The notes below the pieces were generated by a model. That model made no database searches and had not been told where the DNA came from. It saw nothing but the letters and a program-made list of their open reading frames with translations. Below are positions 1 to 41,778 of a stretch of 64,000 nucleotides of DNA, one piece after another. The position numbers and the translations under genes are program-made. Source of the stretch: Bacteroidales bacterium UBA4181 (GTDB lineage Bacteria > Bacteroidota > Bacteroidia > Bacteroidales > UBA4181); contig DFUR01000013.1 in the NCBI GenBank assembly GCA_002380425.1, positions 554 through 64,553 of the forward strand. Direction: 5' to 3'. Numbering within the stretch: the first letter of the stretch is position 1; every line of letters begins with the position of its first letter.

Positions 1-1131
1 TATGCCTCGGGCTTCCTTTGGCTCGGGGGCCACCAGTACAATATATCCCCCTCCGCCTGCACCGGAAAGTTTCCAGCCAATGGCGCGGCCCCTGCATTGC
101 TCAATGGCCTCTAGAATCTCCGGGCCGACCATATTGGGAAACATATCGATTTGGGCCTCAAAGGCTTCTCTGAAGGCTGTCCCGAAAGCACGAATGTCCC
201 GCTGAAGGATGGCGTCCCAGCAGCGGACAGCAGCAATACTAAGGTTGCGTGCCTTGGCCGGATTGAGGTCGGTTCGTGCCAGTACATCGTACCCGGGAAT
301 ACGGGGGGGAAGGGCCACAAGGTACAGATGGGCCTCCAGCCATTCCAATATTTCTGGATTCAGCATGCATGTAATGCGTTCCGGCCAGTAACCTCCATTG
401 TAGTCCAGACGATTAAGCCCGGGGAGGACGATGCCAAGGGAATCCTGTGAGCCACTCACTACCTTAGTTCCGGGCGGGTTTTCGTAACAAAACAAGGTCT
501 TGGCCAGCTTTTCCATATTCCCCACGGGGATTTCATTCTGCCAGAGCTCAATGGCGCGCTTCCGGGTGCTGGTGCTCATCCCGCTGCGATCGTTGAATTC
601 ATAATCGGGCTCGATGCAGATGGTGAGTACTGGGCCGGGATGGTGACAGGAAACATAGGGTTGATCCAGCCATCCTCCGGCGAGGTCAATCCGGTAGGGA
701 ATGGTACACACCGAACGCAGCGCTGTTGTGGAGCGGGCCGGAAGGGTGGCGTGGGGTTCTCTGCGACTGACCACATAACGGATGCCCAGTTCCCGGCACA
801 AAGCCTCCTTGGCTGCCGTGTGTCCGTCTTCATTTACAAAAAAGATATCCGGACGAAACCTCCTTAGGTCCTCTTCAAAATCCATCAGTCCGCTCCCGGT
901 GTTGATCCAGGCATCCTGAACGGACTTCAATGCCTTGACCATGTACAGGCGCTCCTGCTCCGTATTGATGGTTTTGCGGCCTTTGAGCGCAAATACAGTA
1001 GCATCCGAACCAATACCCACATACAATGCCCCATGAGTGGCAGCCTCTTCAAAGAAGGCAACATGACCGCTGTGCAACATGTCATAGCAGCCGCTGACAA
1101 AGACTTTTACTGAGGGCTGGGAGCCGTCCAT
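1..1131 (-). CDS. Cytidylyltransferase-like (HxGH) domain fused to a GHMP-kinase-like domain; the C-terminus runs off the left window edge
   Basis: It is missing from the ORF track only because no stop lies in the window. I checked all 377 minus-strand codons from ATG (1131-1129) to position 1 and found no stop. The N-terminus MDGSQPSVKVFVSGCYDMLHSGHVAFFEEA carries the nucleotidyltransferase HxGH signature (TagD / RfaE-domain-II type). The last visible residues GRAIGWKLSGAGGGGYIVLVAPEP match the glycine-rich GHMP-kinase motif 3. Confidence 0.7.
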   Translation of the reverse strand, partial: MDGSQPSVKVFVSGCYDMLHSGHVAFFEEAATHGALYVGIGSDATVFALKGRKTINTEQERLYMVKALKSVQDAWINTGSGLMDFEEDLRRFRPDIFFVNEDGHTAAKEALCRELGIRYVVSRREPHATLPARSTTALRSVCTIPYRIDLAGGWLDQPYVSCHHPGPVLTICIEPDYEFNDRSGMSTSTRKRAIELWQNEIPVGNMEKLAKTLFCYENPPGTKVVSGSQDSLGIVLPGLNRLDYNGGYWPERITCMLNPEILEWLEAHLYLVALPPRIPGYDVLARTDLNPAKARNLSIAAVRCWDAILQRDIRAFGTAFREAFEAQIDMFPNMVGPEILEAIEQCRGRAIGWKLSGAGGGGYIVLVAPEPKEARGI

Positions 1132-1147
1132 AAGTCGTAGTTTTTTG

Positions 1148-1204: not shown

Positions 1205-1693
1205 TTATCCACGCACTATTGGTTTGACGTCGTTCTCCGCCGGATGCCCTAAGTCCAGCTCAAAATATCCGTGCCCGGAAGATGATTCGATGCGCATAAA
1301 ACCCAGTTGTGAATAGAAAGCTTCCGCCCGGTCATTGCCCTGCTGTACTTCCAGACGCAGTTTCCTGAAGTGGTTCCTGACTCCGAAGGAGATGGCTTCC
1401 CGAATAAGTGCTTTCCCCATTCCCATATTCTGGAATTTCGGGATAATACTGAAGGATGCGACAAAGCCAAACTCCTTATCCGGGTGGTTAAAGTAACAGG
1501 CCATAAAGCCGGCCTTTACATCTCCTGCATACACCCAGAACTGTTCAGCATTGCAGGCAATCTTGGAGGCAAATTGTGGAATGTCCACCCTTCCGGTCAA
1601 AGGGGGGACAAATATGTCAGCATGAGCCGTGAGGTACGAGACGATCGCATCCACATTTTCTTTCTTGTTCTCTATGTGCATAGGGCCTGTCAT
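1205..1693 (-). CDS. GNAT-family N-acetyltransferase
   Basis: 162 aa. It has the acetyl-CoA binding pattern 'FQNMGMGKALIREAISF' (Q/RxxGxG/A) followed by 'AEAFYSQLGF'. Its start overlaps the upstream ATP-grasp stop by 1 nt (TAATG). Confidence 0.8.
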   Translation of the reverse strand: MTGPMHIENKKENVDAIVSYLTAHADIFVPPLTGRVDIPQFASKIACNAEQFWVYAGDVKAGFMACYFNHPDKEFGFVASFSIIPKFQNMGMGKALIREAISFGVRNHFRKLRLEVQQGNDRAEAFYSQLGFMRIESSSGHGYFELDLGHPAENDVKPIVRG

Positions 1694-2874
1694 TATTCAA
1701 TCCATTGATTATGGCGCAGTGCATCCATATAGCATTCTAGTTGTTCATTGGTGTCCAGACGGAATATCATCACTCCGGCTACATCCCTTGAATTCCGGTA
1801 TTGAGGAATGACCTGTCCGGGCTGGGCGAAAATGTCTGCTTCCAGAATGCATTCTTCGAGCAGTGCCGGGATGTTCACCTTGGAAAAAACAGTGTCACGG
1901 GTAGCATGAAGGATGAGTTGTGCATAATATCCCCTGTTTGTGGTTTTGGAGCAATGTTGTATCTCTTTCCCGAACAATGATTCCACATTGGCTCCGACCA
2001 GATCGAAGCCGGTAGCAGCCTTCATAAGCTGCGGCATGAAATTTCCCCCGTTACGGGCTCCAATTTCGAGCACAAAAAGTTGGTCCTGCTGGTCGCGGAT
2101 CACTTCGACATTGATTCCCCCGGTATGGAATCCCACTTTGCGGATCACCTCTTTCACCAGCGCATGAACTTTAGGCATGACATCTGTATGGGCGGAACTG
2201 GGAAGGATGGTAGAGTATGGCACTAATTCATTCACTGTGCTGAAATACTGGTCGCCCAGTTCCAGAAACCGGACTTCATGGTTGACCACAAATCCTTCGC
2301 CGTGTATCTGCGGCCCCTTTCTCTGGATGAATTGTTCCAGAATCACCCGGCCTGAGCGGGAGAATCTTAATGCCTCATCATAATATTGTTTTATGTCATC
2401 TGCATCCTCAATACGGAATATTCCCTTGCTTCCGCTGGAATCTGCCGGTTTGATGATAGCCTTTCCACCCGGATAGGCAGCCAGCAATTCCTTCAGGGTG
2501 GTGCCATGGCAAAACCAGGGGGATGCAAAAAGGTTGGCCTTAAGAAATGCCCGGAAAAGAGTTTTGTTGGAAAGTGTTTGAACGCTCTTGTAGGAGCTAC
2601 CTATCAGGCCCAGTCGGTCACGCACGTAGGCGGCTGTGGGAGCAGACGGGTCTGAAGCATAGGCACAGATTGCATCAATCTTTTGTTCTCTTGCCAGCTT
2701 CAGGATGGACTCTTTGTCGGTGGTGCTGATGTTGAAGTATTTGTCGGACACAGCATGGCCTGGGTTCTCAGGCAGGTAGTCGGCAGTAATCACGAAATAG
2801 CCCTGTTCCTTGGCGAACCTGATGACGGGGACCTGTGCGGGCGCTCCTCCCAGGATAAGGATGGTTTGTTTCAT
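1693..2874 (-). CDS. ATP-grasp domain ligase
   Basis: MKQTILILGGAPAQVPVIRFAKEQGY forms a pre-ATP-grasp Rossmann-like segment. 'IIKPADSSGSKGIFRI' and 'LFVLEIGARNGGNF' are typical ATP-grasp segments. I prefer the start at MKQ (2874) over the track start at 2904. Confidence 0.8.
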   Translation of the reverse strand: MKQTILILGGAPAQVPVIRFAKEQGYFVITADYLPENPGHAVSDKYFNISTTDKESILKLAREQKIDAICAYASDPSAPTAAYVRDRLGLIGSSYKSVQTLSNKTLFRAFLKANLFASPWFCHGTTLKELLAAYPGGKAIIKPADSSGSKGIFRIEDADDIKQYYDEALRFSRSGRVILEQFIQRKGPQIHGEGFVVNHEVRFLELGDQYFSTVNELVPYSTILPSSAHTDVMPKVHALVKEVIRKVGFHTGGINVEVIRDQQDQLFVLEIGARNGGNFMPQLMKAATGFDLVGANVESLFGKEIQHCSKTTNRGYYAQLILHATRDTVFSKVNIPALLEECILEADIFAQPGQVIPQYRNSRDVAGVMIFRLDTNEQLECYMDALRHNQWIE

Positions 2875-2968
2875 ACCCCAATATACTTCAATTTTTTGAA
2901 TCACCTGACTTATTTTTTATATTTTTACAAACGGAATATGATTTGTTCCGATTTCACCCGTCTCCTAT

Positions 2969-3634
2969 ATGGCTGATAAAGTGATTGTATTGGGTTCTTC
3001 CGGACACGCCCGGAGTGTTGCCTGTGTGCTCGAAGACCTCAATTATGAGGTTGTGGGCTTTGTGGACTCATTTCGGCCTCCCGGTGAGCCCGTCCTTAGG
3101 TACAAAACCCTTGGGGATGAGCATGTTATGAGGGATTGCCAAAGGCGGTATGGAACCCGCTCCGTGGTAGTCGGTGTGGGGGATATTCTCAGCAGAAAGA
3201 GGGTGGTTCAGCTAATCCGTGAAATCAACCCTGATGTTGTTTTCCCCACAATCGTCTCTCCCCACGCCAAAGTTTCGCATTATGCTTCTCTTGGTGAGGG
3301 TACGGTAGTGCTGTCCCATGCTCTGGTGAATGTGGAGTGTTTGGTAGGTTGTTTTTGTGTGCTCAATTCGGCCAGCCTTATTGAACACAACACCCGAATC
3401 GGGGATTATTGCAGCATATCTCCTGGTGCAAACATCGGAGCCAATGTCTCTGTTGGAGAGGGAGTCTTTATCGGTTCCTCTGCCACCCTCATTCAGCGCC
3501 GGAGCGTAGGTGCTTATTCGGTCATTGGAGCTGGGGCTGTGGTTACACAGGATTTGCCGGACCATGTGCTTGCTGTCGGTGTCCCCGCGGTGGTAAAACG
3601 AGAGAATTATGTTAATGTTAATATTTTCAGATGA
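2969..3634 (+). CDS. NeuD/PglD/PerB-family sugar N-acyltransferase (left-handed beta-helix)
   Basis: N-terminal 'KVIVLGSSGHARSVACVLEDLNYEVVGFVD' followed by hexapeptide repeats ('IGDYCSISPGANIGANVSVGEGVFIGSSATL'). Confidence 0.8.
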   Translation: MADKVIVLGSSGHARSVACVLEDLNYEVVGFVDSFRPPGEPVLRYKTLGDEHVMRDCQRRYGTRSVVVGVGDILSRKRVVQLIREINPDVVFPTIVSPHAKVSHYASLGEGTVVLSHALVNVECLVGCFCVLNSASLIEHNTRIGDYCSISPGANIGANVSVGEGVFIGSSATLIQRRSVGAYSVIGAGAVVTQDLPDHVLAVGVPAVVKRENYVNVNIFR

Positions 3635-3704
3635 TTGCATTCGGAAATGCTTCTGTGGCAATGTTCTGGAAGATGCCGCGCCAGAGAGCTAAACGTTTGG
3701 CGAT

Positions 3705-5000
3705 ATGAGTATTGGAGGATTTTTGCGCAGAAAGTTTTATTGGACTTTCGATTACTTCAAAGGCAGGCCTGTTGGCAAGCATTACAACGACATAAGCAGG
3801 ATTCTGAGGAACAGTAATGGCGAGGGGCCAGTGCTTCAACAGGAGCATCTGGCGCGACTGCTTCGGCATGCAGTTGAGCATTCCCCATTCTATGAAGCAT
3901 GTGATCCAGCAAGGCTCGATTCCTTTCCTGTCATCAACAAATCCTTGATCAGGGCACATCAGGATGCCATGAAGGTCCCTGTTCAAGTGATTCCCGAACA
4001 CACTGGCGAGATGCATATCCAGCGAACAAGTGGCTCTACCGGTACTCCGTTGGCGGTGCCTCAGGATAAGCGGAAGCGAAACCGGAGAATAGCCGAACTC
4101 AAATATTTTGGGGCCATTGCCGGGTATCCTTCTCACGAGAAAATGGCCCAGTTGAGAATCTGGACCAAATGGCAGAGCAAGGGGGCATTTCAGTCATTCA
4201 AGGAAAACATCTACCCGGTTGATTGCAGCCGGATGAATGATGAAATGTTGTCGGCTCTGTGTGTTCTGGTGAGAAAAAAAAGAATCCGTGCTCTTTGGGG
4301 CTACGCGAGTTGGTTCGATAAACTTGCCTCATTTGTTGCTTCGAACAGGGTGCGTCTTCCGTCTCTCAGGGTGGTAATTGCCGGTTCGGAGATGCTTCAG
4401 CCGGAAACCCGGGATACACTCAGGAGTGAACTTGGCTGTTCGGTTATTTCCAGATATTCAAATGAAGAACAGGGCGTTCTGGGGCAGGACAAAGAGGAGG
4501 ATGAGCACTATCACCTGAACCATGCCAGCTATTTTTTTGAATTTCTCCGAATGGACCGAGATGAAGCGGCTCAGCCCGGGGAGCTCTGCCGGATTGTTGT
4601 AACGGATTTGTTCAACTATGCGTTTCCTTTGATTCGTTATGATACAGGAGACACCGGCATATATGGGAACTCTGTCTCCGGTTTTCCTGTTTTGTGCAAG
4701 ATATATGGACGATTGCTCGATTTGGTGAGTGACACACAGGGCCTTCCGGTTCATCCCATGACAATTGCCAGGATATTGAAAAACTATGACCCGGTGGAGC
4801 AGTGGCAATTCACCCAGAAGAGCCCGGAGGAATATGAACTTAAATGGGTGTTGTCCGGAACCTTGGATTCGTCGGATTGTGTTGGAGAGCTTAGAAAAGT
4901 TTTTGGGCAGGATGCCCAGGTGTCAGTGGTTGAAGTGTCAGAAATACCTGTGTTGTCCTCTGGAAAGCGCAGGCTGGTAAAAAATGAATCAAATCAATGA
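3705..5000 (+). CDS. PaaK/CapK-like adenylate-forming enzyme (phenylacetate-CoA ligase / F390 synthetase family)
   Basis: 431 aa. It has the AMP-binding loop 'RTSGSTGTPLAV', 'IRYDTGD' and a C-terminal 'SGKRRLV'. Confidence 0.75.
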   Translation: MSIGGFLRRKFYWTFDYFKGRPVGKHYNDISRILRNSNGEGPVLQQEHLARLLRHAVEHSPFYEACDPARLDSFPVINKSLIRAHQDAMKVPVQVIPEHTGEMHIQRTSGSTGTPLAVPQDKRKRNRRIAELKYFGAIAGYPSHEKMAQLRIWTKWQSKGAFQSFKENIYPVDCSRMNDEMLSALCVLVRKKRIRALWGYASWFDKLASFVASNRVRLPSLRVVIAGSEMLQPETRDTLRSELGCSVISRYSNEEQGVLGQDKEEDEHYHLNHASYFFEFLRMDRDEAAQPGELCRIVVTDLFNYAFPLIRYDTGDTGIYGNSVSGFPVLCKIYGRLLDLVSDTQGLPVHPMTIARILKNYDPVEQWQFTQKSPEEYELKWVLSGTLDSSDCVGELRKVFGQDAQVSVVEVSEIPVLSSGKRRLVKNESNQ

Positions 5001-5638
5001 AAAAAATCTATTTGCTGGGTGTAGGGCGAAATACGCCGGTTTGTATGGATCTTGCAATCAGGTGCGGTTATGAGGTGGCGGGATTGTACCACTACAATGA
5101 TGAAAGAACGGGTGAGTCGGATCACGGGATTCTTATTCTGGGTTCGTTCGCTGATTTGTTTGCAAGGGATTCCCTGCAGGGATTGAATTTCCTGCTGACC
5201 ATGGGGGACAGCCGGATCCGGGTGGAGGTCGCCGATCGATTGCGCAAATTGGGAGCTAATCTGCCTTCTTTGATTCATCCTGCTGCCGTTGTCTCGGGCT
5301 TTGCTACCATAGAGGATGGGGTAACCGTGAATGCATTTTCAAACATTCAGGCTGATGTTTACATAGGCCAGGATAGTTTGATACTATCTGGTGTCAATGT
5401 CTCACACGGTTGTGTTCTTGACAAGGGGTGTTTCATTGCCGGCGGAGCCACTGTGGGTGCCCTCACAAAGGTAGGAGCTTGTGCTTTCATTGGGCAGGGG
5501 GCATTGATTCTTTCTTCCAAAGTTGATTCCATAGGAGAATACGCCGTTATTGGCGCCGGTGCTCTGGTTACAAAGCCTGTTGCACCTCATGATGTGGTTG
5601 CCGGAAGACCAGCCAAAAGCATTAAATCAACCGTATGA
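4997..5638 (+). CDS. Second NeuD/PglD-family acyltransferase (hexapeptide)
   Basis: 'MKKIYLLGVGRNTPVCMDLAIRCGYEVAGLY' plus hexapeptide repeats ('GCFIAGGATVGALTKVGACAFIGQGALI'). ATGA overlap with the upstream gene. Confidence 0.75.
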   Translation: MKKIYLLGVGRNTPVCMDLAIRCGYEVAGLYHYNDERTGESDHGILILGSFADLFARDSLQGLNFLLTMGDSRIRVEVADRLRKLGANLPSLIHPAAVVSGFATIEDGVTVNAFSNIQADVYIGQDSLILSGVNVSHGCVLDKGCFIAGGATVGALTKVGACAFIGQGALILSSKVDSIGEYAVIGAGALVTKPVAPHDVVAGRPAKSIKSTV

Positions 5639-6927
5639 TACGCATTGCACTTGTAGGGGATGTGATGATTACCAGGCCGCTGCCCTCTCAGGGCTATGAG
5701 GGCCAGCATCTGTTGACGCAATTGATTCAGGAACACGAGGTGAAATGTGCCAATCTGGAAACCACCATACACCGAAGAGAGGGGTATCCTTCTGCTTTCC
5801 CCGGGGGAACCTGGGCTATGGCCGATCCGGTTTGTCTTGAAGATATCAAAAGCCTGGGTTTTAATGTGCTCAATACGGCCAACAACCACTCGATGGATTA
5901 TGCACATAAGGGTTTGCTCGCTACACACAGACATCTGCGCAGGGCCGGTTTGACCTATTTTGGAACTGGTCAGAATCTGGCTGAGGCCTCGGCTCCATTG
6001 TTCACTGAGTGCTCAGAAGGTCGGGTGGCATTTGTCGGTGTCACCAGTTCTTTTCATGATTCGGATGCTGCGGGCCATCAGCGCAGGGACATGCAGGGAC
6101 GCCCCGGTGTCAATCCTTTACGGCACAAGTCGGTGTGCGAGATTTCGCCTGAGAACTTTACTGCCCTTCGGCATGTTGCCGAACAGACTGGTGTGAATGA
6201 TTATCATCATCAGGCCATCAGGGAAGGCTTTCTCCTGCCCAGAGAGAACCTCACTATTGGGCCGTATGAGTTTGTCCAGGGTGGGAGCAACGTACTTCGA
6301 ACTTTCCCTTTGGAGAAGGATGTGGAACGCATCGCGAAATCTGTTTCTGAGGCCCGGAAGCAGGCCGATTGTGTGGTGGTGAGCGTTCATTCGCATCAGT
6401 TTTCGAACAGAGACAAGTCCATTCCGGCTGAGTTCCTGTCTCTATTTTCCAGGACATGTATTGATGCCGGTGCATCTGTGATTGTGGGCCATGGCCCGCA
6501 TATTTTGCGGGGCATTGAAGTGTATCACGGCGGAGTGATATGCTACAGTCTGGGCAATTTTATTTTTCAGAACGAGACGGTTTCACATCTTCCTGCTGAG
6601 TTTTACGAGAAGTATTCCCTTGCCCATGATGATGGAGTCGGTACCGCCATGGATAAGCGAAGCCAGAATGGGACCAAGGGCCCTGCCAGCGATCCGGACT
6701 CATGGAAAAGCGTGCTGGTGAGCATAGCGCTGGAACCTGACACCATGAGCATCCGGTTGGTTCCGGTGGAACTGGGGTTTCATCTTGAACGCTACAATAG
6801 AGGTTTGCCCAAAATATCCGGAGACACTGCCGTTTTGGAACGCATACAAGCCTTGTCTGTTCCCTTTGGGACAGAGATTCATATCCGCAATGGGGAGGGT
6901 TTTCTCAAAGTTTCACGGAGAATCTGA
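5635..6927 (+). CDS. CapA/PGA_cap-family metallophosphoesterase-like protein
   Basis: 'IALVGDVMITR', 'ANLETTI' and 'FNVLNTANNHSMDYAHKGLLATHRHLRRAGLTYFGTG' match the pattern of poly-gamma-glutamate CapA-type proteins. ATGA overlap upstream. Confidence 0.7.
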   Translation: MIRIALVGDVMITRPLPSQGYEGQHLLTQLIQEHEVKCANLETTIHRREGYPSAFPGGTWAMADPVCLEDIKSLGFNVLNTANNHSMDYAHKGLLATHRHLRRAGLTYFGTGQNLAEASAPLFTECSEGRVAFVGVTSSFHDSDAAGHQRRDMQGRPGVNPLRHKSVCEISPENFTALRHVAEQTGVNDYHHQAIREGFLLPRENLTIGPYEFVQGGSNVLRTFPLEKDVERIAKSVSEARKQADCVVVSVHSHQFSNRDKSIPAEFLSLFSRTCIDAGASVIVGHGPHILRGIEVYHGGVICYSLGNFIFQNETVSHLPAEFYEKYSLAHDDGVGTAMDKRSQNGTKGPASDPDSWKSVLVSIALEPDTMSIRLVPVELGFHLERYNRGLPKISGDTAVLERIQALSVPFGTEIHIRNGEGFLKVSRRI

Positions 6928-6990: not shown

Positions 6991-7857
6991 ATGAAAGGGA
7001 TTATACTTGCCGGAGGTAGTGCTACCCGTCTTTATCCACTCTCCAAGGCCATTTCCAAACAAATCATGCCGGTGTACGACAAGCCCATGATTTATTATCC
7101 TCTTTCCACCCTGATGTTGGCGGGCATTCGTGAGGTATTGGTGATCTCCACTCCGAGGGACCTTCCCATGTTTCGGGAACTGCTCGGGGATGGCCGTCAC
7201 CTCGGAATGCGTCTGGAGTATAAGGTTCAGGATGTCCCCAATGGTCTGGCTCAGGCATTTGTTCTGGGTGCGGAGTTTCTTTCCGGTGAGCCGGCCTGTC
7301 TCATCCTGGGGGATAATTTATTCTATGGCCATGGTTTCCCGTCCCTGCTTCGCGGGGTGGTGGCCCATTCTGGCTCCGGAGCCTGTATCTTTGGTTACCC
7401 GGTGAAGGATCCCCGTGCTTATGGGGTGGTTTCGTTTGACGCAGACGGCACAGTACTGAGTCTTGAAGAAAAACCTGAGCATCCTCTTTCCAATTACGCG
7501 GTCCCCGGGCTGTATTTCTACGACAGTACCGTATCCGCCCGTGCTGCTGCCCTGAAGCCTTCTGCCAGAGGAGAGTACGAGATTACAGACCTCAATAAGT
7601 GTTATCTGGCCGAAGGGACCCTTAGAGTGGAACTCCTCGGGAGAGGGTTTGCCTGGCTGGACACCGGGAATTGCGACAGCCTCCTGGAAGCATCCAATTT
7701 TGTGCACACAGTTCAAAGCCGCCAGGGCTTTCAGATATCCTGTATTGAAGAGATTGCCTGGCGCAACGGATGGATCACCGATGAGCAGTTGCAGAAATTG
7801 GGACAAGCTCTGTCCAAGACGGAATACGGCCAGTATTTGCTGAGTCTGGTGCATTAG
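6991..7857 (+). CDS. rfbA: Glucose-1-phosphate thymidylyltransferase
   Basis: '[53 protein letters not shown]' is a near-canonical RmlA N-terminus. 288 aa. Confidence 0.95.
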
Positions 7858-7938
7858 GGGCCGGGATTGCCCTGGCTGCCGGGATTTGAGCCGTTTTGTG
7901 TATCTTTGTCCTGTATCAACCAACCTTTGCCCCCGTTT

Positions 7939-9078
7939 ATGAAGAAATATCTTGTCACCGGCGGAGCCGGTTTTATCGGAGCCAATTATGTCAAGTACCT
8001 GCTGCACACCTATGCTGATGTGAACCTCGTCGTGCTGGATGCCCTGACCTATGCCGGAAACTATCGTACCATCGAGCAGGATGTGGATGGGGAACGTTGT
8101 TGCTTCGTCAAAGGTGACATCTGCGACCGTGAATTGGTGGACCGTATCTTTGAGGAGCATGGAGTGCAGGTGGTGGTAAATTTTGCTGCGGAGAGCCATG
8201 TGGACCGGAGTATCGAAAACCCACAGCTTTTCCTGGTTACCAACATTCTGGGCACGCAGAACCTGTTGGATGCTGCTCGCCGTCACTGGGTAACGGGCAA
8301 GGATGCGCAGGGATATCCCCAATGGAAACAGGGTGTGCGTTTTCATCAGGTTTCGACCGATGAAGTGTATGGCAGCCTGGGTGAGGAGGGATACTTCACC
8401 GAAGAGACCCCCCTGGATCCGCGAAGCCCTTACAGTGCCTCCAAAACCAGTGCAGACCTCTTTGTCCGGGCTTATGTGGAAACCTTCAAAATGCCGGCGA
8501 CCATCACCCGTTGTTCCAACAACTACGGGCCATATCACTTTCCCGAAAAATTGATCCCCTTGATTATTAAGAACATTCTGGAGGGAAAGCCCCTCCCGGT
8601 GTACGGTAACGGGAGCAATGTCCGTGATTGGTTGTATGTGGAGGACCACTGCAAGGCTATAGAAATGGTCGTGCGTAAGGGGCGTCCTGGCGAAGTGTAC
8701 AATGTGGGAGGACACAACGAGATGCAGAATCTGGAGATTGTGAGAATGGTGATTGCCAATATCCGCAGCATTATGGACCGGGAGCCGGGTTATCGGGAGG
8801 TATTGAAAAAGAAGGAATACAATGCCCAGGGAGAGATCCGCACCGACTGGATCAACGAAACCCTCATCACGTTTGTGGCCGACCGGCTGGGGCATGACCA
8901 GCGATACGCTATTGACCCCACCAAGATTACCGGCGAACTGGGCTGGTATCCTGAAACCCGCTTTGCACAGGGCATTGTCCAAACCATCTACTGGTATCTG
9001 GATCATCAGGATTGGGTGGATGAAGTGACCAGCGGCTCGTACCAGCAGTACTACCAGCAGATGTACACAGACCGGTAA
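7939..9078 (+). CDS. rfbB: dTDP-glucose 4,6-dehydratase
   Basis: 'MKKYLVTGGAGFIGANYV', 'YSASKTSADLFVRAY' (YxxxK) and 'NNYGPYHFPEKLIP'. I prefer ATG at 7939 over the TTG-initiated track ORF at 7867. Confidence 0.95.
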   Translation: MKKYLVTGGAGFIGANYVKYLLHTYADVNLVVLDALTYAGNYRTIEQDVDGERCCFVKGDICDRELVDRIFEEHGVQVVVNFAAESHVDRSIENPQLFLVTNILGTQNLLDAARRHWVTGKDAQGYPQWKQGVRFHQVSTDEVYGSLGEEGYFTEETPLDPRSPYSASKTSADLFVRAYVETFKMPATITRCSNNYGPYHFPEKLIPLIIKNILEGKPLPVYGNGSNVRDWLYVEDHCKAIEMVVRKGRPGEVYNVGGHNEMQNLEIVRMVIANIRSIMDREPGYREVLKKKEYNAQGEIRTDWINETLITFVADRLGHDQRYAIDPTKITGELGWYPETRFAQGIVQTIYWYLDHQDWVDEVTSGSYQQYYQQMYTDR

Positions 9079-9809: not shown

Positions 9810-10607
9810 ATGAACTGTATGAAGAACTATTCCATGCGCGCCCTGTTGTGGCTGCCGGCATTGCTTGCTTTGGGGATATCCTCGTGTATCCCTCAGAAGT
9901 CTGTTATCTACCTGCAGGACAAGACCCAGCAGGAAGGCTATGTGAATCCTTACCGTCAGGCCACCGAGATCACGGAGAACTACAAGATTCAGGTGAACGA
10001 TTACCTGTATGTGCGCGTGATCACCGGGGACCCGGAGTTGGAGAAATACTACAATCTCTCAACCGGTACCGGACAGATGTCCACACAAGGGGGAAACTCC
10101 ATGAAATTCAGCTCCTATCTGGTGGCCGATAATGGGTGCATAGATTTTCCTTATCTGGGAGATGTGCCCGTGCAAGGGCTCACACTTAGTCAGGCCAAGG
10201 CCCGTCTGTCGGAATTGCTCAGCAAGCAGATTGACCAGTACACGCTTCAGGTGCAACTTACCAATACCTTCTTCACCGTGTTGGGTGAGGCTGGCTCGGG
10301 CATGTATCCCATGAACAAGGATCAGCTCACCATCTACGAGGCTCTGGCAATGGCGGGGGACCTGAAAACTTATTCCAAACGAAATAAGGTGAAGATTATC
10401 CGGAAAGGATCAGACGGGGTTTCTTCCATTCGCGAGGTGGACCTTACTGACAAGAATTTGCTCGATTCGCAGGAGTCGTATATTCTGCCCAATGATATTG
10501 TTTATGTGGAACCTATCAAGGCTAAGATGCTGGGTTTTGGAGAGACCTTCTCTCTGGGGCTGGTTACCACCCTTATTTCGTTCTATTTGTTGATTCTGTC
10601 CTTGTAA
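9810..10607 (+). CDS. wza: Polysaccharide export outer-membrane lipoprotein (Wza family)
   Basis: Lipoprotein-type signal 'MRALLWLPALLALGISSC', a Poly_export-like 'YKIQVNDYLYVRV' and an SLBB-like segment 'KVKIIRKGSDG'. It is adjacent to wzc. Confidence 0.85.
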   Translation: MNCMKNYSMRALLWLPALLALGISSCIPQKSVIYLQDKTQQEGYVNPYRQATEITENYKIQVNDYLYVRVITGDPELEKYYNLSTGTGQMSTQGGNSMKFSSYLVADNGCIDFPYLGDVPVQGLTLSQAKARLSELLSKQIDQYTLQVQLTNTFFTVLGEAGSGMYPMNKDQLTIYEALAMAGDLKTYSKRNKVKIIRKGSDGVSSIREVDLTDKNLLDSQESYILPNDIVYVEPIKAKMLGFGETFSLGLVTTLISFYLLILSL

Positions 10608-10617
10608 CCGTACTGTT

Positions 10618-13089: not shown

Positions 13090-13095
13090 TTTCGC

Positions 13096-14145: not shown

Positions 14146-14146
14146 T

Positions 14147-14998: not shown

Positions 14999-15037
14999 CC
15001 AATATTTCCAACATCCCATCAATACACATCCGTTTTC

Positions 15038-16255
15038 ATGAAGGACGATATTCTGATTAAGTGTGACAAAGTTTCCAAAAAGTTTTGCAAGGACTTCAAA
15101 AGGTCTCTTTGGTATGGTTTCAAGGACGTGTGCAGCTCTTTTACGAGGGGGAATCCCAATCCGGAGCGGCTCCGTAAGGACGAGTTCTGGGCGCTCAAGG
15201 ACATTTCTTTTGAACTGCGCAGAGGGGAATGTCTGGGCCTGATTGGGCACAACGGGGCAGGGAAGTCCACCCTGCTCAAGATGCTCACGGGTTTGATCAA
15301 GCCCGATGAGGGCTCCATCACCATGCGGGGGCGCATCGGCACCATGATCGAGTTGGGTGCCGGATTCAATCCCATCCTCACGGGGCGGGAGAACATTTAT
15401 AACAACGGCGCTGTACTGGGTTTCAGCAAGGAAGAGATTGATGATAAGTTTCAGCAAATCGTGGCTTTCTCGGAGATAGGGGAATTCATTGATAGCCCGG
15501 TGCAGAATTACAGCTCCGGGATGAAGGTTCGTCTGGGATTTGCCGTGGCAGCCCAGATGGAGCCCGATGTGTTGCTCGTTGACGAGGTGCTGGCAGTAGG
15601 CGACCTAGGCTTTGTTATTAAGTGCCTCAACCGCATGGGAGAACTCATTCCCAACACGGCCACCATCTTTGTCAGCCACAGTATGCCCATGATTTCCCGG
15701 ATTTGTTCCCAAGTGCTGCTGATGGACAAGGGGAAAACACTATTTCATTCCAATGATATAGCGGAGGGCATTGCCAAGTATATCAATATGTTTGAATCTC
15801 CTCAGAGGATCAATCAGGGAAGTGGGGAGATAGAGTTAGCGTCCATCGCGATACACGATCCCAGAACAGGCCGCATGGTGCAGGATGACTCTGCCGTCCT
15901 GACCACCTACGATGACCTTGATATGGAGGTGACCGTCAAGATCGCCCCCTCAGTAGGAACATTTCACTTGTTTTTAACCACTTTTGACGCTCAGCTCAGG
16001 GAGGTGATGTCCTCAGGGTCCAATATTAACGGGGCGGCATTTGTGAACAACGGGACGGAGGTGCGCAAGTTTCAAATCAAGATTCCGCATCAGGTATTGG
16101 CTACGGCCAAATACAGCATCACTTTTGGTGCCACCAACCCGGATACCAAGGCTTTTTACTGCCGGGTGACCAACAGTATCTACTTTACAATGAAGGCCGG
16201 TGCTGCTACCTGGGCTTGTTCGGTAATCCCCGGTGAGTGGAAAGAACAAAACTAA
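15038..16255 (+). CDS. wzt: Polysaccharide ABC transporter ATP-binding protein with a C-terminal Wzt_C-like beta-sandwich extension
   Basis: Walker A 'GHNGAGKST', signature 'YSSGMKVRLGFA' and Walker B 'VLLVDEVLAVGD'. About 150 extra C-terminal residues follow ('GEIELASIAIHD...KYSITFGATNPD...IYFTMKA'). Confidence 0.9.
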   Translation: MKDDILIKCDKVSKKFCKDFKRSLWYGFKDVCSSFTRGNPNPERLRKDEFWALKDISFELRRGECLGLIGHNGAGKSTLLKMLTGLIKPDEGSITMRGRIGTMIELGAGFNPILTGRENIYNNGAVLGFSKEEIDDKFQQIVAFSEIGEFIDSPVQNYSSGMKVRLGFAVAAQMEPDVLLVDEVLAVGDLGFVIKCLNRMGELIPNTATIFVSHSMPMISRICSQVLLMDKGKTLFHSNDIAEGIAKYINMFESPQRINQGSGEIELASIAIHDPRTGRMVQDDSAVLTTYDDLDMEVTVKIAPSVGTFHLFLTTFDAQLREVMSSGSNINGAAFVNNGTEVRKFQIKIPHQVLATAKYSITFGATNPDTKAFYCRVTNSIYFTMKAGAATWACSVIPGEWKEQN

Positions 16256-16260
16256 TCGGA

Positions 16261-17364
16261 ATGAACCCAGTATATGTAACCCAGCCAGCTCTTCCTCCTC
16301 TGGATGAATACACCCAGATGCTGGAGCAGATTTGGAGCCAAAAGATACTCACCAACAACGGTCCCTTTCACCAGGAGTTTGAGCAGGAGCTGTGCCGGTA
16401 TCTGGGGGTGGAGCATCTCTCAGTGTTTTCCAACGGCACCCTTGCCCTGATGACAGCACTGCAAGCGCTGCGTATCGTGGGCGAGGTCATAACTACTCCG
16501 TTCAGTTTTGTGGCGACCACGCATTCCCTGTGGTGGAACAACATCAAGCCGGTGTTCGTGGATGTGGAGCCTGAGTATTTCAATCTGGACCCGGACCGCA
16601 TTGAAGCAGCCATTACCCCGAGAACCACAGCCATCATGCCGGTGCATGTGTACGGGAATCCGTGCTACATGGAACGCATCCGCGAAATTGCCGACACCTA
16701 TGGGCTCAAAGTCATTTATGATGCAGCCCATGCTTTTGGCGTTCGCAGGAACGGACATTCTGTGCTGGAGTACGGGGATATGTCCATCCTTAGCTTTCAT
16801 GCCACCAAGGTATTCAGTTCCATTGAGGGAGGGGCCATCGTGTGCCGCAGTGAGGTTATGAAAAAAAGGATTGACCACCTCAAGAACTTTGGGTTTGCCA
16901 ATGAAACCACTGTCATAGAGCCGGGCATCAATGCCAAAATGAATGAGTTTCAGGCAGCTTTTGGTTTGCTTCAACTCCGGTATGTGGATGGATATATTGC
17001 ACGGAGAAAAGAAATTGCTGAGACCTATCGCTCCGGGCTTAGGGATGTTGCCGGGATTCGGTGTATGGAGGACATCCCGGGGGTGCGCCACGGTTATCCA
17101 TATTTCCCGGTATTTGTGGATGCCGCGCAATATGGAATGAGCCGTGATGATCTATACGAAAAGCTGAAGCAACATCAAATTTTTGGACGTCGTTATTTTT
17201 ATCCGCTCATCAGCCAATTCCCCACCTACAGCGGGCTGAGTTCCGCCCGGCCTGAAAATCTTCCGGTTGCAGAGCAGGCAGCCCGTCAGGTATTGTGCCT
17301 CCCGATTTTTCCGGAGCTCTCTCTGGAAAAGGTGGCAGAGATTCTATCCATCATTAAGTCTTGA
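16261..17364 (+). CDS. DegT/DnrJ/EryC1/StrS-family NDP-sugar aminotransferase
   Basis: 'GDMSILSFHATKVFSSIEGGAIV' contains the PLP lysine motif SxHxxK, and 'NAKMNEFQAAFGLLQL' is also present. I prefer ATG at 16261. Confidence 0.85.
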   Translation: MNPVYVTQPALPPLDEYTQMLEQIWSQKILTNNGPFHQEFEQELCRYLGVEHLSVFSNGTLALMTALQALRIVGEVITTPFSFVATTHSLWWNNIKPVFVDVEPEYFNLDPDRIEAAITPRTTAIMPVHVYGNPCYMERIREIADTYGLKVIYDAAHAFGVRRNGHSVLEYGDMSILSFHATKVFSSIEGGAIVCRSEVMKKRIDHLKNFGFANETTVIEPGINAKMNEFQAAFGLLQLRYVDGYIARRKEIAETYRSGLRDVAGIRCMEDIPGVRHGYPYFPVFVDAAQYGMSRDDLYEKLKQHQIFGRRYFYPLISQFPTYSGLSSARPENLPVAEQAARQVLCLPIFPELSLEKVAEILSIIKS

Positions 17365-32489: not shown

Positions 32490-32490
32490 T

Positions 32491-39756: not shown

Positions 39757-39757
39757 G

Positions 39758-41773: not shown

Positions 41774-41778
41774 AAAAC

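What the first reader, a model, noticed from the sequence alone, without database searches (positions are those of the whole stretch)
1205..6927. Divergent acyl / aminoacyl tailoring cassette: ATP-grasp, GNAT, PaaK-like ligase, two NeuD/PglD-like acyltransferases and a CapA-like protein
**Seen in sequence.** Six enzymes that activate or transfer carboxylates are clustered around a divergent promoter region (2875..2968).
- On the minus strand, an ATP-grasp ligase and a GNAT are joined by a 1-nt overlap.
- On the plus strand lie a NeuD-like gene, an adenylate-forming PaaK/CapK-like enzyme ('TSGSTGTP'), a second NeuD-like gene and a CapA/PGA_cap-like protein. The last three are joined by ATGA overlaps and feed directly into rfbA/rfbB.

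**Established knowledge.** PglD/PerB-type LbH enzymes N-acylate NDP-amino sugars. ATP-grasp enzymes form amide bonds on capsular uronates or amino sugars. CapA belongs to the poly-gamma-glutamate machinery.

**Inference.** The amino sugars made by the two aminotransferases in this locus may be decorated with two different acyl groups, or with an amino-acid or short-peptide substituent. I am not aware of this enzyme combination being a described pathway.
Basis: partly seen in the sequence, partly recalled or inferred. Interest (0 to 1): 0.7.

Follow-up and report, generated by a model that had tools for sequence, protein, structure and literature searches.

The report
Amino-sugar acyl/aminoacyl tailoring gene cassette
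Six real genes at the head of a ~53-kb surface-polysaccharide locus combine two widespread but biochemically untested enzyme sets that most likely build a short acyl or amino-acid side chain, possibly with an inverted (D) residue, on a 4-amino-6-deoxy sugar.

Summary
All six ORFs, their domain types, the TAATG and ATGA overlaps and the 94-nt divergent spacer are as described.

The "CapA-like" protein is a soluble homologue of the peptide epimerase MslH. It keeps all 8 catalytic and metal-binding residues and is not part of a poly-gamma-glutamate machine.

Comparative genomics shows two independent modules rather than one six-gene unit. Both are anchored on a DesI-like sugar 4-aminotransferase, which lies at 16237-17364 in this window.
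- **Module A:** ATP-grasp ligase + GNAT. A DegT gene is nearby in 25 of 28 loci, and fused ATP-grasp-GNAT proteins exist.
- **Module B:** PaaK-family "CapK-like" adenylating ligase + LbH acyltransferase (NeuD2) + MslH-like epimerase. A DegT gene is nearby in 50 of 61 loci.

ATP-grasp and LbH partners tend to exclude each other. The window merges both flavours and adds a canonical PerB/VioB-like N-acetyltransferase (NeuD1).

The most likely function is stepwise ATP-dependent N-acylation or aminoacylation of dTDP-4-amino-4,6-dideoxyhexose, with N-acetyl capping and C-alpha epimerisation. The substrates, and whether CapK transfers to CoA or to an amine, remain unresolved.

I rate it a new variant of a known kind, of moderate interest.

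The parts
1..1132 (-). 3' part of a cytidylyl/adenylyl-transferase + GHMP-kinase-like fusion gene (385 aa in full). It is the next gene of the minus-strand operon and is context only, not part of the conserved modules.
   Evidence: One search gives the full gene on L001 6270-7427 with CTP_transf_like and a faint GHMP_kinases_C hit. One search gives rfaE domain II-like and fucokinase C-terminus-like matches. Neither it nor the ThDP enzyme further upstream was found next to ATP-grasp homologues.
1205..1693 (-). GNAT N-acetyltransferase, RimI-like. Predicted to cap the alpha-amine of an aminoacyl group.
   Evidence: PF00583 scores 55.6 bits and rimI-like 44 bits. It is homologous (32-41% identity) to the C-terminal domain of six ATP-grasp-GNAT fusion proteins. 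In CapK-anchored loci it co-occurs with the ATP-grasp (OR 18, p=5e-5).
1693..2874 (-). ATP-grasp ligase of the L-amino-acid-ligase/PylC/DdaF type. Predicted to form an amide on the DegT-made sugar amine through an acyl phosphate.
   Evidence: The best PDB matches are 4DIM, then the L-amino acid ligases 3VOT and 4WD3. DegT lies within 4 kb in 25 of 28 homologue loci and immediately upstream in 14.
2875..2968 (.). 94-nt AT-rich divergent intergenic region between the two operons. A promoter function is presumed and was not shown.
   Evidence: Sequence read. The single sigma-70-like match is no more than the shuffles give.
2969..3634 (+). NeuD1, a canonical NeuD/PglB/VioB-family LbH sugar N-acetyltransferase.
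   Evidence: TIGR03570 scores 190 bits against a cut-off of 160.8. The best PDB matches are PerB 4EA7 (3.5e-29) and VioB 7TXP, and the catalytic His (PerB H141) is kept. It is not conserved next to CapK in the closest relatives.
3705..5000 (+). CapK-like PaaK-family adenylate-forming ligase, the core of module B.
   Evidence: The TSGSTG, RYDTGD and SGKR motifs are invariant in 58 homologues. The AF2 model has pLDDT 91.7. Its nearest folds are BT_0428 and PaaK1 at TM ~0.65, followed by NatL2, AjiA1 and ClxA. DegT lies within 4 kb in 50 of 61 loci.
4997..5638 (+). NeuD2, a divergent LbH acyltransferase translationally coupled to CapK by an ATGA overlap.
   Evidence: TIGR03570 scores 143 bits, below the cut-off. 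The best PDB matches are PglB-ATD 4M98, PerB and VioB, and the catalytic His is kept. It lies immediately downstream of CapK in L006-8, 12, 14, 26, 30-34, 36, 87, 93, 94 and 95.
5635..6927 (+). Soluble MslH-like PGA_cap protein, a predicted metal-dependent C-alpha epimerase.
   Evidence: PF09587 scores 191.7 bits. MslH 8GQ9 matches at E 1.5e-64 over residues 3-422. D9, E42, N84, H85, D88, H252, H254 and H289 correspond to MslH D11, E44, N87, H88, D91, H259, H261 and H295, and are conserved in 114-118 of 118 homologues.
6991..7857 (+). RfbA, glucose-1-phosphate thymidylyltransferase.
   Evidence: TIGR01207 scores 461 bits against a cut-off of 360.
7939..9078 (+). RfbB, dTDP-glucose 4,6-dehydratase.
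   Evidence: TIGR01181 scores 464 bits against a cut-off of 365. The gene is called as 379 aa on L001.
16237..17364 (+). DegT1, a DesI-like dTDP-4-keto-6-deoxyglucose 4-aminotransferase. It is the likely maker of the amine that both modules decorate, displaced 11 kb downstream in this window.
   Evidence: The best NCBIfam model is DesI at 303 bits. The best PDB match is DesI 2PO3 at 2.4e-64, against perosamine synthase at 1e-42. Its closest relatives (59-69% identity) lie directly next to CapK or ATP-grasp homologues.

Best explanation
The cassette is a nucleotide-sugar tailoring unit that builds an N-linked acyl, aminoacyl or short peptide-like side chain on a 4-amino-4,6-dideoxyhexose.

**Step 1 (strongly supported by family models).** RfbA and RfbB make dTDP-4-keto-6-deoxyglucose. 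The DesI-like DegT1 converts it to dTDP-4-amino-4,6-dideoxyglucose.

**Step 2 (inferred from context).** The LAL/PylC-type ATP-grasp ligase activates a carboxylic or amino acid as an acyl phosphate and joins it to an amine, most simply the sugar 4-NH2. The GNAT then N-acetylates the new alpha-amine.

**Step 3 (inferred).** The PaaK-family CapK-like enzyme forms an acyl-adenylate and makes a second amide. I favour direct, CoA-independent transfer. This follows the V. cholerae CapK-like protein VpsH, which is needed for the glycine amide on VPS, and the PaaK-family ligases NatL2 and AjiA1.

**Step 4 (inferred).** The LbH enzyme NeuD2 is an alternative to the ATP-grasp as first acylator, or an N-capping enzyme, since the two rarely co-occur.

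**Step 5 (inferred from homology).** The MslH-like protein inverts the C-alpha of a residue of the type R-CO-NH-CH(R')-COO-. This residue may be the terminal residue added by CapK, or a free N-acyl amino acid before ligation. The result is a D-configured unit.

**NeuD1** is an ordinary N-acetyltransferase. It may serve the second amino sugar of the locus, made by DegT2 at 32407-33609.
For: **Family and motif evidence**
- The MslH match covers the full length with 8 of 8 catalytic and metal residues. The mechanism is in PMC10406935. PMC8179263 proposes that CapA is itself an epimerase.
- The protein starts MIRIALVGD with no hydrophobic leader, so it fits a cytoplasmic, nucleotide-sugar-stage role.

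**Gene-neighbourhood evidence**
- CapK-anchored loci (n=61): DegT 50, ATP-grasp 25, LbH 15, GNAT 15, PGA_cap 9.
- ATP-grasp-anchored loci (n=28): DegT 25, GNAT 13, CapK 1, PGA_cap 0.
- Associations: ATP-grasp versus LbH, OR 0.15, p=0.016. ATP-grasp versus GNAT, OR 18, p=5e-5. LbH versus PGA_cap, OR 5.3, p=0.03.
- Gene-called examples: RfbB-RfbA-Wzx-DegT-CapK-LbH (L087); DegT-CapK-LbH-PGA_cap (L093, L095); Wzx-ATPgrasp-CapK-GNAT-DegT (L091); Wzx-CapK-PGA_cap-DegT-ATPgrasp with no soluble acyltransferase (L089).
- Fusion proteins: six ATP-grasp-GNAT and one CapK-GNAT.

**Precedents and wider context**
- VpsH is a precedent for a CapK-like amino-acid ligase on a glycan (PMC13463779).
- PaaK-family enzymes that make ester or amide bonds without CoA are among the nearest folds.
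- Soluble PGA_cap homologues (48-49% identity) sit in D-amino-acid-type operons, with hydantoinase/M20/aspartase in L088 and three amidohydrolases plus two alanine racemases in L096.
- E. coli O antigens are known to carry amide-linked Gly, N-acetyl-Gly, L-Ala, N-acetyl-L-Ser, D-allo-Thr and N-acetyl-D-allo-Thr (PMC7685785). This shows that such decorations, including C-alpha-inverted ones, exist.
Against: - No enzyme of either module has been assayed, and every substrate assignment is inference.
- The association tests are not corrected for phylogeny and cover at most 61 loci.
- DegT1 lies 11 kb from the cassette in this window.
- The window has a second aminotransferase and a 2,3-dehydratase pathway, so the target sugar or sugars are not certain.
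- CapK could equally be a CoA ligase feeding NeuD2 or the GNAT.
- The MslH catalytic residues are conserved across the whole PGA_cap family, so they do not prove epimerase rather than hydrolase activity here.
- The ATP-grasp and GNAT are co-transcribed with unrelated-looking genes (nucleotidyltransferase/kinase fusion, ThDP enzyme, second ATP-grasp, SDR) and could serve that pathway instead.
Confidence: 0.6

Rival explanations
1. CapK is a true acyl-CoA synthetase, as PaaK is. It makes an unusual acyl-CoA from a free acid. NeuD2, or a GNAT in other loci, transfers that acyl group to the sugar amine. The PGA_cap protein racemises the free 2-substituted acid or N-acyl amino acid beforehand. The ATP-grasp/GNAT pair acts separately.
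For: - The fold and family are PaaK.
- CapK and the LbH gene are always adjacent in the order CapK then LbH, and are translationally coupled here.
- A CapK-GNAT fusion exists.
- Minimal loci such as RfbB-RfbA-Wzx-DegT-CapK-LbH (L087) have exactly one ligase and one transferase.
- Soluble PGA_cap homologues occur in small-molecule operons.
- From my own knowledge: LbH N-acyltransferases that use non-acetyl CoA thioesters, and the AMP-ligase-dependent tetronate acylation of perosamine in V. cholerae O1, are known precedents.
Against: - Several loci have CapK plus DegT with no soluble acyltransferase: L089/L090, the Ruminococcus loci L016, L019, L020 and L022, and the Blautia clade.
- The PaaK equivalog model scores 30 bits against a cut-off of 646.
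- The only CapK-like protein with genetic evidence (VpsH) is needed for an amide and no CoA-dependent partner was identified.
Confidence: 0.25
2. CapK works like VpsH on a uronic-acid carboxylate of the lipid-linked repeat unit and amidates it with an amino acid. The MslH-like protein then epimerises that amino acid, which keeps a free alpha-carboxylate. The DegT adjacency would be incidental.
For: - VpsH is needed for the glycine amide on GulNAcA.
- A uronoyl-amino acid has exactly the R-CO-NH-CH(R')-COO- motif that MslH acts on.
- UDP-sugar dehydrogenase genes lie near CapK in 9 of 28 close loci.
- The window has an AsnB-type amidotransferase at 34872-36803, a type associated with uronamide formation (my own knowledge).
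Against: - DegT is far more tightly and frequently linked to CapK (24 of 28 close loci, often within 8-72 nt) than Ugd is (9 of 28, within 10 kb).
- None of the ORFs scanned in the window matched UDP-sugar dehydrogenase.
- How close VpsH is to this protein could not be measured.
Confidence: 0.1
3. The genes are neighbours in a large glycan locus without a shared pathway. Two or three are ordinary N- or O-acetyltransferases, the ATP-grasp/GNAT pair serves the upstream ThDP-enzyme operon, and the PGA_cap protein is a phosphoesterase.
For: - No close relative has all six genes.
- NeuD1 is not conserved with the others.
- The ATP-grasp and GNAT are followed on the same strand by unrelated biosynthetic genes.
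- PGA_cap has a calcineurin-like metallophosphatase fold (PMC10406935).
Against: - The same adjacencies recur across Bacteroidota, Clostridia, Spirochaetota and Halomonas.
- Fusion proteins exist.
- A Clostridia MAG has the collinear set DegT-GNAT-ATPgrasp-CapK-PGA_cap...LbH (L044).
- The upstream ThDP and kinase genes are not found with ATP-grasp homologues.
Confidence: 0.05

Closest known systems
MslH, the lasso-peptide MS-271 C-terminal Trp epimerase (PDB 8GQ9); more distantly CapA/PgsA of poly-gamma-glutamate synthesis
   Same: - The match runs over the full length at E 1.5e-64.
- Both have the PGA_cap (calcineurin-like) domain.
- All eight residues are conserved: the metal ligands and the two His/Asp dyads.
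- Both are soluble.
- The expected chemistry is C-alpha deprotonation next to a metal-bound free carboxylate.
   Different: - The NCBIfam MslH equivalog scores 247 bits against a cut-off of 700, so this is not an orthologue.
- There is no lasso-peptide cluster.
- Unlike CapA/PgsA, there is no membrane anchor and no PgsB/PgsC partners.
- The context is a nucleotide-sugar and glycan locus, always beside a CapK-like ligase.
VpsH of the Vibrio cholerae VPS cluster (CapK-like / phenylacetate-CoA-ligase-like)
   Same: It is a PaaK/CapK-like protein in a polysaccharide locus, and it is genetically required for an amide-linked amino acid (glycine) on the glycan (PMC13463779).
   Different: - VpsH acts on a uronic-acid carboxylate of a lipid-linked disaccharide. 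Here the linked partner is an aminotransferase-made amino sugar.
- The sequence relationship to VpsH could not be measured with the tools left.
- The VpsH chemistry is itself untested.
PaaK phenylacetate-CoA ligase and PaaK-family ligases (BT_0428, NatL2, AjiA1, ClxA)
   Same: It shares the fold (TM ~0.65, Foldseek E 1e-24) and the ANL motifs TSGSTG, YDTGD and the C-terminal SGKR lysine.
   Different: - Sequence identity is 18-20%.
- The PaaK equivalog model is far below its cut-off.
- It has its own conserved N-terminal region and a CapK_C domain.
- Whether the acceptor is CoA, as for PaaK, or a nucleophile on a second substrate, as for NatL2 and AjiA1, is unknown.
PerB / VioB / PglD / PglB-ATD sugar N-acetyltransferases (NeuD family, TIGR03570)
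   Same: Both LbH proteins have the PglD_N-type N-terminal domain plus the left-handed beta-helix, and both keep the catalytic His.
   Different: - NeuD1 passes the family cut-off. NeuD2 does not (143 against 160.8 bits).
- NeuD2 forms a clade that travels with CapK.
- Its acyl donor is unknown.
L-amino acid ligases (BL00235 3VOT, RizA 4WD3), DdaF and PylC ATP-grasp enzymes
   Same: The ATP-grasp_3/_4 domains are present, with weak LAL_C2 and PylC-like_N matches. The expected chemistry is an acyl phosphate on an amino-acid or acid carboxylate followed by amine attack.
   Different: - All equivalog scores are far below their cut-offs.
- The genomic partner is a sugar aminotransferase, so the amine acceptor is probably an NDP-amino sugar rather than a free amino acid.
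Cj1438C, the TupA-like ATP-grasp amidoligase of the C. jejuni HS:2 capsule
   Same: It is an ATP-grasp enzyme that makes an amide on a capsular sugar (PMC11800379).
   Different: It belongs to a different ATP-grasp subfamily (TupA-like). It activates the sugar's own carboxylate (GlcA C6) and acts on the polymer or oligomer.
Amide-linked amino acids on O-antigen sugars (E. coli O91, O121, O167, O114, O110, O63)
   Same: These are known glycan decorations of the predicted type, including N-acetylated and C-alpha-inverted (D-allo-Thr) residues (PMC7685785).
   Different: The enzymes responsible could not be compared here. No paper in the library links them to CapK-like, LAL-like ATP-grasp or MslH-like proteins.

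Membership tests
PGA_cap (PF09587) | Pfam gathering score for the domain | tested here: met
   191.7 bits against a cut-off of 27, covering residues 4-312.
MslH-type peptide epimerase | Metal ligands E44, N87, H259, H261 and catalytic dyads H88/D91 and H295/D11 | tested here: met
   All eight align to identical residues: D9, E42, N84, H85, D88, H252, H254, H289. They are conserved in 114-118 of 118 homologues.
MslH-type peptide epimerase | Equivalog-level similarity (NCBIfam NF038314) and a lasso-peptide gene cluster | tested here: not met
   247 bits against a cut-off of 700. The neighbours are sugar-nucleotide and glycan genes.
MslH-type peptide epimerase | Epimerase activity on a residue with a free alpha-carboxylate | not testable with these tools
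   This needs a D2O-exchange or chiral analysis assay.
CapA/PgsA of poly-gamma-glutamate synthesis | N-terminal membrane anchor and co-encoded PgsB/CapB (Mur-ligase-like) and PgsC/CapC | tested here: not met
   The protein starts MIRIALVGDVM with no hydrophobic leader. None of the ORFs scanned in the window gave a Mur-ligase-type Pfam hit. The 'CpsB_CapC' hit on L001 is a different family.
PaaK phenylacetate-CoA ligase (TIGR02155) | Equivalog score | tested here: not met
   30.1 bits against a cut-off of 646.3.
ANL adenylate-forming superfamily, PaaK-like fold | Two-domain fold plus the P-loop TSGSTG, the YxTGD motif and the C-terminal catalytic Lys | tested here: met
   The motifs are invariant in 58 sequences. 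The AF2 model has pLDDT 91.7. Foldseek gives E 1e-24 and TM 0.62-0.66 to BT_0428 and PaaK1. PF00501 itself is below its gathering score, 24.1 against 29.9.
ANL adenylate-forming superfamily, PaaK-like fold | Acceptor of the acyl-adenylate (CoA versus amine) | not testable with these tools
   Context arguments point both ways.
NeuD/PglB/VioB sugar acetyltransferase (TIGR03570) | Subfamily score and catalytic His, for NeuD1 | tested here: met
   190.1 bits against a cut-off of 160.8. The His aligned to PerB H141 is kept.
NeuD/PglB/VioB sugar acetyltransferase (TIGR03570) | Subfamily score and catalytic His, for NeuD2 | tested here: inconclusive
   143.1 bits is below the cut-off of 160.8, and PglD_N scores 21.6 against 23.4. 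However, the alignment to PglB-ATD, PerB and VioB covers the full length and the catalytic His is kept.
ATP-grasp superfamily | Pfam ATP-grasp_3 / ATP-grasp_4 gathering scores | tested here: met
   30.3 against 23.2 and 31.1 against 27.
L-amino acid ligase (LAL) subfamily | LAL_C2 domain at gathering score, or an equivalog match | tested here: not met
   LAL_C2 scores 22.5 against 29.4. DdaF scores 23.8 against 840 and PylC 21.7 against 248. The resemblance is real (3VOT at E 5.6e-11) but it is not membership.
GNAT (PF00583) | Pfam gathering score | tested here: met
   55.6 bits against a cut-off of 20.7.
DesI/VioA-type dTDP-4-keto-6-deoxyglucose 4-aminotransferase (DegT1) | Best similarity to a 4-aminotransferase of the dTDP pathway rather than GDP-perosamine synthase; equivalog score | tested here: inconclusive
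   The best PDB match is DesI 2PO3 at 2.4e-64, against perosamine synthase at 1e-42. The DesI equivalog scores 303 bits against a cut-off of 650.

The most novel reading that the evidence does not exclude
CapK-like PaaK-family enzymes may be a large, unrecognised class of CoA-independent amide synthetases that, with or without LAL-type ATP-grasp ligases, build peptide-like side chains on NDP-4-amino-6-deoxyhexoses. Soluble MslH-type PGA_cap proteins would then invert the terminal residue after ligation. That would be a ribosome- and NRPS-independent route to D-amino-acid (or D-acyl) decorations on bacterial surface glycans, and it would give the CapA/PGA_cap family one unifying substrate motif, R-CO-NH-CH(R')-COO-.
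Probability: 0.35. Interest if true: 0.75.

Novelty: new variant of a known kind. Interest (0 to 1): 0.55.

Why it matters
N-acyl and aminoacyl groups on amino sugars are dominant epitopes of O antigens and capsules. For most of them, including D-configured ones such as D-allo-threonine, I found no paper in the library searched that names the enzymes responsible.

The two modules found here have thousands of homologues in gut and environmental Bacteroidota, Clostridia, spirochaetes and Halomonas, and I found no biochemical study of any of them.

Assigning them would:
- let glycan side chains be predicted from sequence;
- give a soluble, tractable relative in which to test the proposed epimerase role of CapA/PgsA;
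- add ATP-dependent ligases that work on nucleotide sugars to the toolbox for glycoengineering.

Tried and rejected
- **Poly-gamma-glutamate machinery:** rejected. There is no membrane anchor and none of the scanned ORFs gave a PgsB/PgsC-type hit.
- **GDP-perosamine as the target sugar** (the window has a gmd-like gene at 13096-14145 and an ABC transporter): less likely. DegT1 matches DesI far better than perosamine synthase, and RfbA/RfbB accompany the modules elsewhere.
- **Six-gene unit co-conserved as a whole:** rejected for close relatives.
- **ATP-grasp/GNAT belonging to the upstream ThDP/kinase operon:** not supported. Those genes are absent from 80 ATP-grasp loci.
- **Literature searches that found no description of the enzyme set:** CapK + phenylacetate-CoA ligase + polysaccharide; F390 synthetase + O-antigen; ATP-grasp + Qui4N/viosamine; allothreonine + gene cluster; PgsA + epimerase. 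The exception was the VpsH paper.
- **PMC2168959** (dTDP-Qui4N pathway paper): not held.
- **tblastn of CapK against plasmids:** only hits at 27% identity or less.
- **PHROGs scan of unannotated window ORFs:** nothing useful.
- **Rfam and tRNA scans of the window:** empty.
- **Sigma-70 promoter scan of the divergent spacer:** no better than shuffles. The organism is probably a Bacteroidota with a different promoter type; this is an inference from best hits.
- **Look-up of the closest ATP-grasp homologue, P0246:** failed.

Full report
**1. Observation**

The six ORFs exist at the stated coordinates.

Pfam and NCBIfam give the following:
- GNAT, 1205-1693, minus strand.
- ATP-grasp, 1693-2874, minus strand.
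- A NeuD/PglB/VioB-family LbH transferase, 2969-3634, above its family cut-off.
- An ANL/PaaK-like enzyme, 3705-5000, carrying TSGSTGTP. Its precomputed Pfam hit is CapK_C.
- A second, more divergent LbH transferase, 4997-5638, below the family cut-off.
- A PGA_cap protein, 5635-6927.

The junctions were read directly from the sequence:
- TAATG is shared by the ATP-grasp stop and the GNAT start.
- ATGA overlaps lie at 4997-5000 and 5635-5638.
- rfbA starts 63 nt after the last gene, and rfbB follows.

The ATP-grasp most likely starts at the ATG at 2874. The 393-aa form is the one on record, and homologues align from residue 2-3.

The two LbH proteins are only 31% identical over the helix domain, so they are not a recent duplication.

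**2. Wider setting**

The window is one long glycan locus, running up to about 53.6 kb. It contains:
- Wza and Wzc (9810-13089).
- A gmd-like gene, then an ABC-transporter ATPase (15038-16255, Pfam ABC_tran) preceded by a 286-aa ORF with no Pfam hit (14138-14998). That ORF resembles (25-42% identity by tblastn) ORFs lying upstream of ABC-transporter ATPase genes in L007, L008 and L169.
- A DesI-like aminotransferase, DegT1 (16237-17364).
- Many glycosyltransferases.
- An NDP-hexose 2,3-dehydratase, a 3-ketoreductase-like gene and an SDR (23374-26659).
- A second aminotransferase, DegT2 (32407-33609).
- An AsnB-type amidotransferase.
- A WecA-like initiating transferase on the minus strand (52576-53616).

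An exact-protein look-up found the same locus on JGI metagenome contigs. There the minus-strand operon continues beyond the window start:
- a nucleotidyltransferase/GHMP-kinase-like fusion;
- an acetolactate-synthase-like ThDP enzyme;
- a second ATP-grasp;
- an SDR;
- Gmd and Fcl.

Best hits of all three query proteins are Bacteroidota MAGs. The source is therefore probably a Bacteroidota; this is an inference.

**3. The 'CapA-like' protein**

Its best solved relative is the lasso-peptide epimerase MslH (8GQ9), at E 1.5e-64 over residues 3-422.

The eight residues that the MslH structure paper defines as Ca(II) ligands and acid/base dyads (PMC10406935) are all identical. They are conserved in 114-118 of 118 homologues.

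The protein has no N-terminal hydrophobic segment, and none of the scanned ORFs gave a PgsB/PgsC-type hit. It is therefore not PGA machinery. It is also not an MslH orthologue, scoring 247 bits against a cut-off of 700.

The earlier MslH paper proposes that CapA itself is a Glu epimerase (PMC8179263).

Two homologues of 48-49% identity lie in operons that fit D-amino-acid or N-acyl-amino-acid metabolism:
- Hydantoinase-like, M20 peptidase and aspartase-type genes in Oceanobacillus (L088).
- Three amidohydrolases flanked by two alanine racemases and an amino-acid permease (L096).

Homologues of 60% identity or more sit on the same contigs as the best CapK homologues.

**4. The CapK-like ligase**

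More than 3,300 homologues scored E below 1e-5.

The adenylation motifs are invariant. A confident AF2 model (pLDDT 91.7) is closest to BT_0428 and PaaK1 (TM ~0.65). Next come PaaK-family enzymes deposited with aryl-acid adenylates (ClxA, NatL2) and AjiA1. From my own knowledge, NatL2 and AjiA1 make ester or amide bonds without CoA.

It is not PaaK itself, scoring 30 bits against a cut-off of 646.

The one CapK-like protein with functional evidence is V. cholerae VpsH. Its deletion removes the glycine amide from the VPS repeat unit. The authors leave the chemistry open (PMC13463779).

**5. Gene neighbourhoods**

*CapK view.* A scan of GTDB species representatives with a CapK alignment returned 80 loci. 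ORF-level HMM searches were run on the 61 loci with at least 2.5 kb on each side. The counts of same-strand partners within 4 kb were:

| Partner | Loci (of 61) |
|---|---|
| DegT | 50 |
| ATP-grasp | 25 |
| LbH | 15 |
| GNAT | 15 |
| PGA_cap | 9 |

RfbA and RfbB are frequent within 10 kb.

*ATP-grasp view.* A metagenome scan with an ATP-grasp alignment gave 28 loci with flanks:

| Partner | Loci (of 28) |
|---|---|
| DegT | 25 (14 immediately upstream) |
| GNAT | 13 |
| CapK | 1 |
| PGA_cap | 0 |

The following conclusions follow:
- ATP-grasp(+GNAT) is a self-sufficient DegT-linked module.
- CapK(+LbH)(+PGA_cap) is another DegT-linked module.
- PGA_cap depends on CapK, not on the ATP-grasp.

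Within CapK loci (not phylogenetically corrected):
- ATP-grasp and LbH avoid each other (2 loci with both; OR 0.15, p=0.016).
- GNAT goes with ATP-grasp (OR 18, p=5e-5).
- PGA_cap goes with LbH (OR 5.3, p=0.03).

Fusion proteins support direct coupling: six ATP-grasp-GNAT and one CapK-GNAT.

Gene-called examples:
- L087 Sphingobacterium: RfbB-RfbA-Wzx-DegT-CapK-LbH.
- L093 Draconibacterium and L095: DegT-CapK-LbH-PGA_cap.
- L091: Wzx-ATPgrasp-CapK-GNAT-DegT.
- L089: Wzx-CapK-PGA_cap-DegT-ATPgrasp, with no soluble acyltransferase.
- L044, a Clostridia MAG: DegT-GNAT-ATPgrasp-CapK-PGA_cap...LbH, all families in one row.

The window's DegT1 has its closest relatives (59-69% identity) directly beside either CapK or ATP-grasp homologues. 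Its best solved relative is DesI, not perosamine synthase.

**6. Mechanism**

*Shown by family models.* RfbA, RfbB and a DesI-like aminotransferase give dTDP-4-amino-4,6-dideoxyglucose.

*Inferred.* Module A has no other acylating enzyme. The ATP-grasp, which is of the LAL/PylC/DdaF type, is therefore the simplest candidate to acylate the sugar amine. The RimI-like GNAT would cap the new alpha-amine.

Loci with one aminotransferase and two ligases (L009, L116) imply two successive amide bonds on one sugar.

The exclusion between ATP-grasp and LbH suggests that they are alternatives for the same step. That step would be either first acylation or N-capping.

CapK then adds or extends the chain. 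The MslH-like enzyme needs a residue with an N-acyl amine and a free alpha-carboxylate. Three candidates fit that requirement:
- the terminal residue added by CapK in the VpsH sense;
- a beta-Asp or gamma-Glu-type linkage;
- a free N-acyl amino acid before ligation.

I cannot decide between these, nor between CoA-independent and CoA-dependent transfer by CapK.

One ATP-grasp locus has a MaoC hydratase and a CitE/HpcH-like lyase between DegT and the ligase (L177). This hints that non-amino acids can also be the donor.

**7. Comparison and novelty**

N-acyl and aminoacyl decoration of amino sugars is a known kind of glycan tailoring. E. coli O antigens carry Gly, AcGly, L-Ala, Ac-L-Ser, D-allo-Thr and Ac-D-allo-Thr.

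The following were not described in the literature available to me:
- A PaaK-family CapK-like ligase and an MslH-type epimerase as fixed partners of a sugar aminotransferase.
- A LAL-type ATP-grasp, with or without GNAT, as a second such module.
- The merger of both modules in one cassette.

I therefore file it as a new variant of a known kind. It is moderately interesting and directly testable with soluble enzymes.

Noticed in passing
window 23374-26659 and 32407-33609: An NDP-hexose 2,3-dehydratase (PF03559, 522 bits), a GFO/IDH/MocA oxidoreductase, an SDR and, further on, a second DegT aminotransferase (best match LegC/PseC-like). This is the enzyme set for 2,6-dideoxy or 3-amino-2,3,6-trideoxy sugars, more familiar from actinomycete antibiotics than from surface glycans. 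A 52%-identical 2,3-dehydratase sits directly upstream of DegT-CapK-LbH-PGA_cap in Bacteroides timonensis (L026).
   Followed up: partly
window 1-1132 (-) and L001 2579-7427: The minus-strand operon continues past the GNAT into a cytidylyl/adenylyl-transferase + GHMP-kinase-like fusion, an acetolactate-synthase-like ThDP enzyme (563 aa), a second ATP-grasp (PRK12767-like, 370 aa) and a thioester-reductase-like SDR. This looks like a separate, unexplained small-molecule or branched-sugar pathway. It is not found beside ATP-grasp homologues elsewhere.
   Followed up: partly
L088 8001-9290; L096 7001-8299: Soluble PGA_cap/MslH-like homologues (48-49% identical) lie in non-glycan operons. One has hydantoinase-like, M20 peptidase and aspartase-type genes. 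The other has three amidohydrolases, two alanine racemases and an amino-acid permease. This suggests a family-wide role in D/L interconversion of N-acyl amino acids.
   Followed up: partly
L052-L078, e.g. L064 8635-15700: A distant CapK clade (35-37% identity) in Blautia and Lachnospiraceae has a conserved row: SDRs, a 448-aa DegT-like protein, CapK, a 406-aa unknown, a second CapK paralogue, a ThDP enzyme, GT2 and YfhO. No acyltransferase is present. The function is unknown.
   Followed up: partly
L177 7502-12839: In a locus whose ATP-grasp is 56% identical to the window's, a MaoC-type hydratase and an HpcH/CitE-like lyase sit between DegT and the ATP-grasp. This hints at a dicarboxylic or hydroxy-acid donor rather than an amino acid.
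   Followed up: no
window 9810-16255: The locus carries both Wza/Wzc (Wzy-type export and tyrosine kinase) and an ABC-transporter ATPase preceded by a Wzm-like ORF (Pfam-negative, tblastn only). A gmd-like gene scoring just under the gmd cut-off (389 against 415 bits) lies between them. A second, full-scoring Gmd plus Fcl lie upstream of the window on L001.
   Followed up: no
window 39734-41773: A 679-aa protein fuses a GT2 domain to an alpha-1,3-fucosyltransferase (FucT_N + GT10). The next ORF (41698-42693) has a weak FUT8-like match. Together with Gmd/Fcl this predicts a fucosylated glycan.
   Followed up: no
window 7318-9006 (-) and 3627-4136 (-): Long antisense ORFs (562 aa and 169 aa) overlap rfbA/rfbB and the CapK gene. 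They are most likely shadow ORFs of the sense genes.
   Followed up: no
L093 16434-17153; L094 11527-12279: WbqC-family proteins (PF08889, named after an O-antigen gene) lie a few genes downstream of the CapK-LbH-PGA_cap triad in two Bacteroidota loci. In L094 the triad also sits next to an AMP-ligase/LuxE/LuxC set.
   Followed up: no
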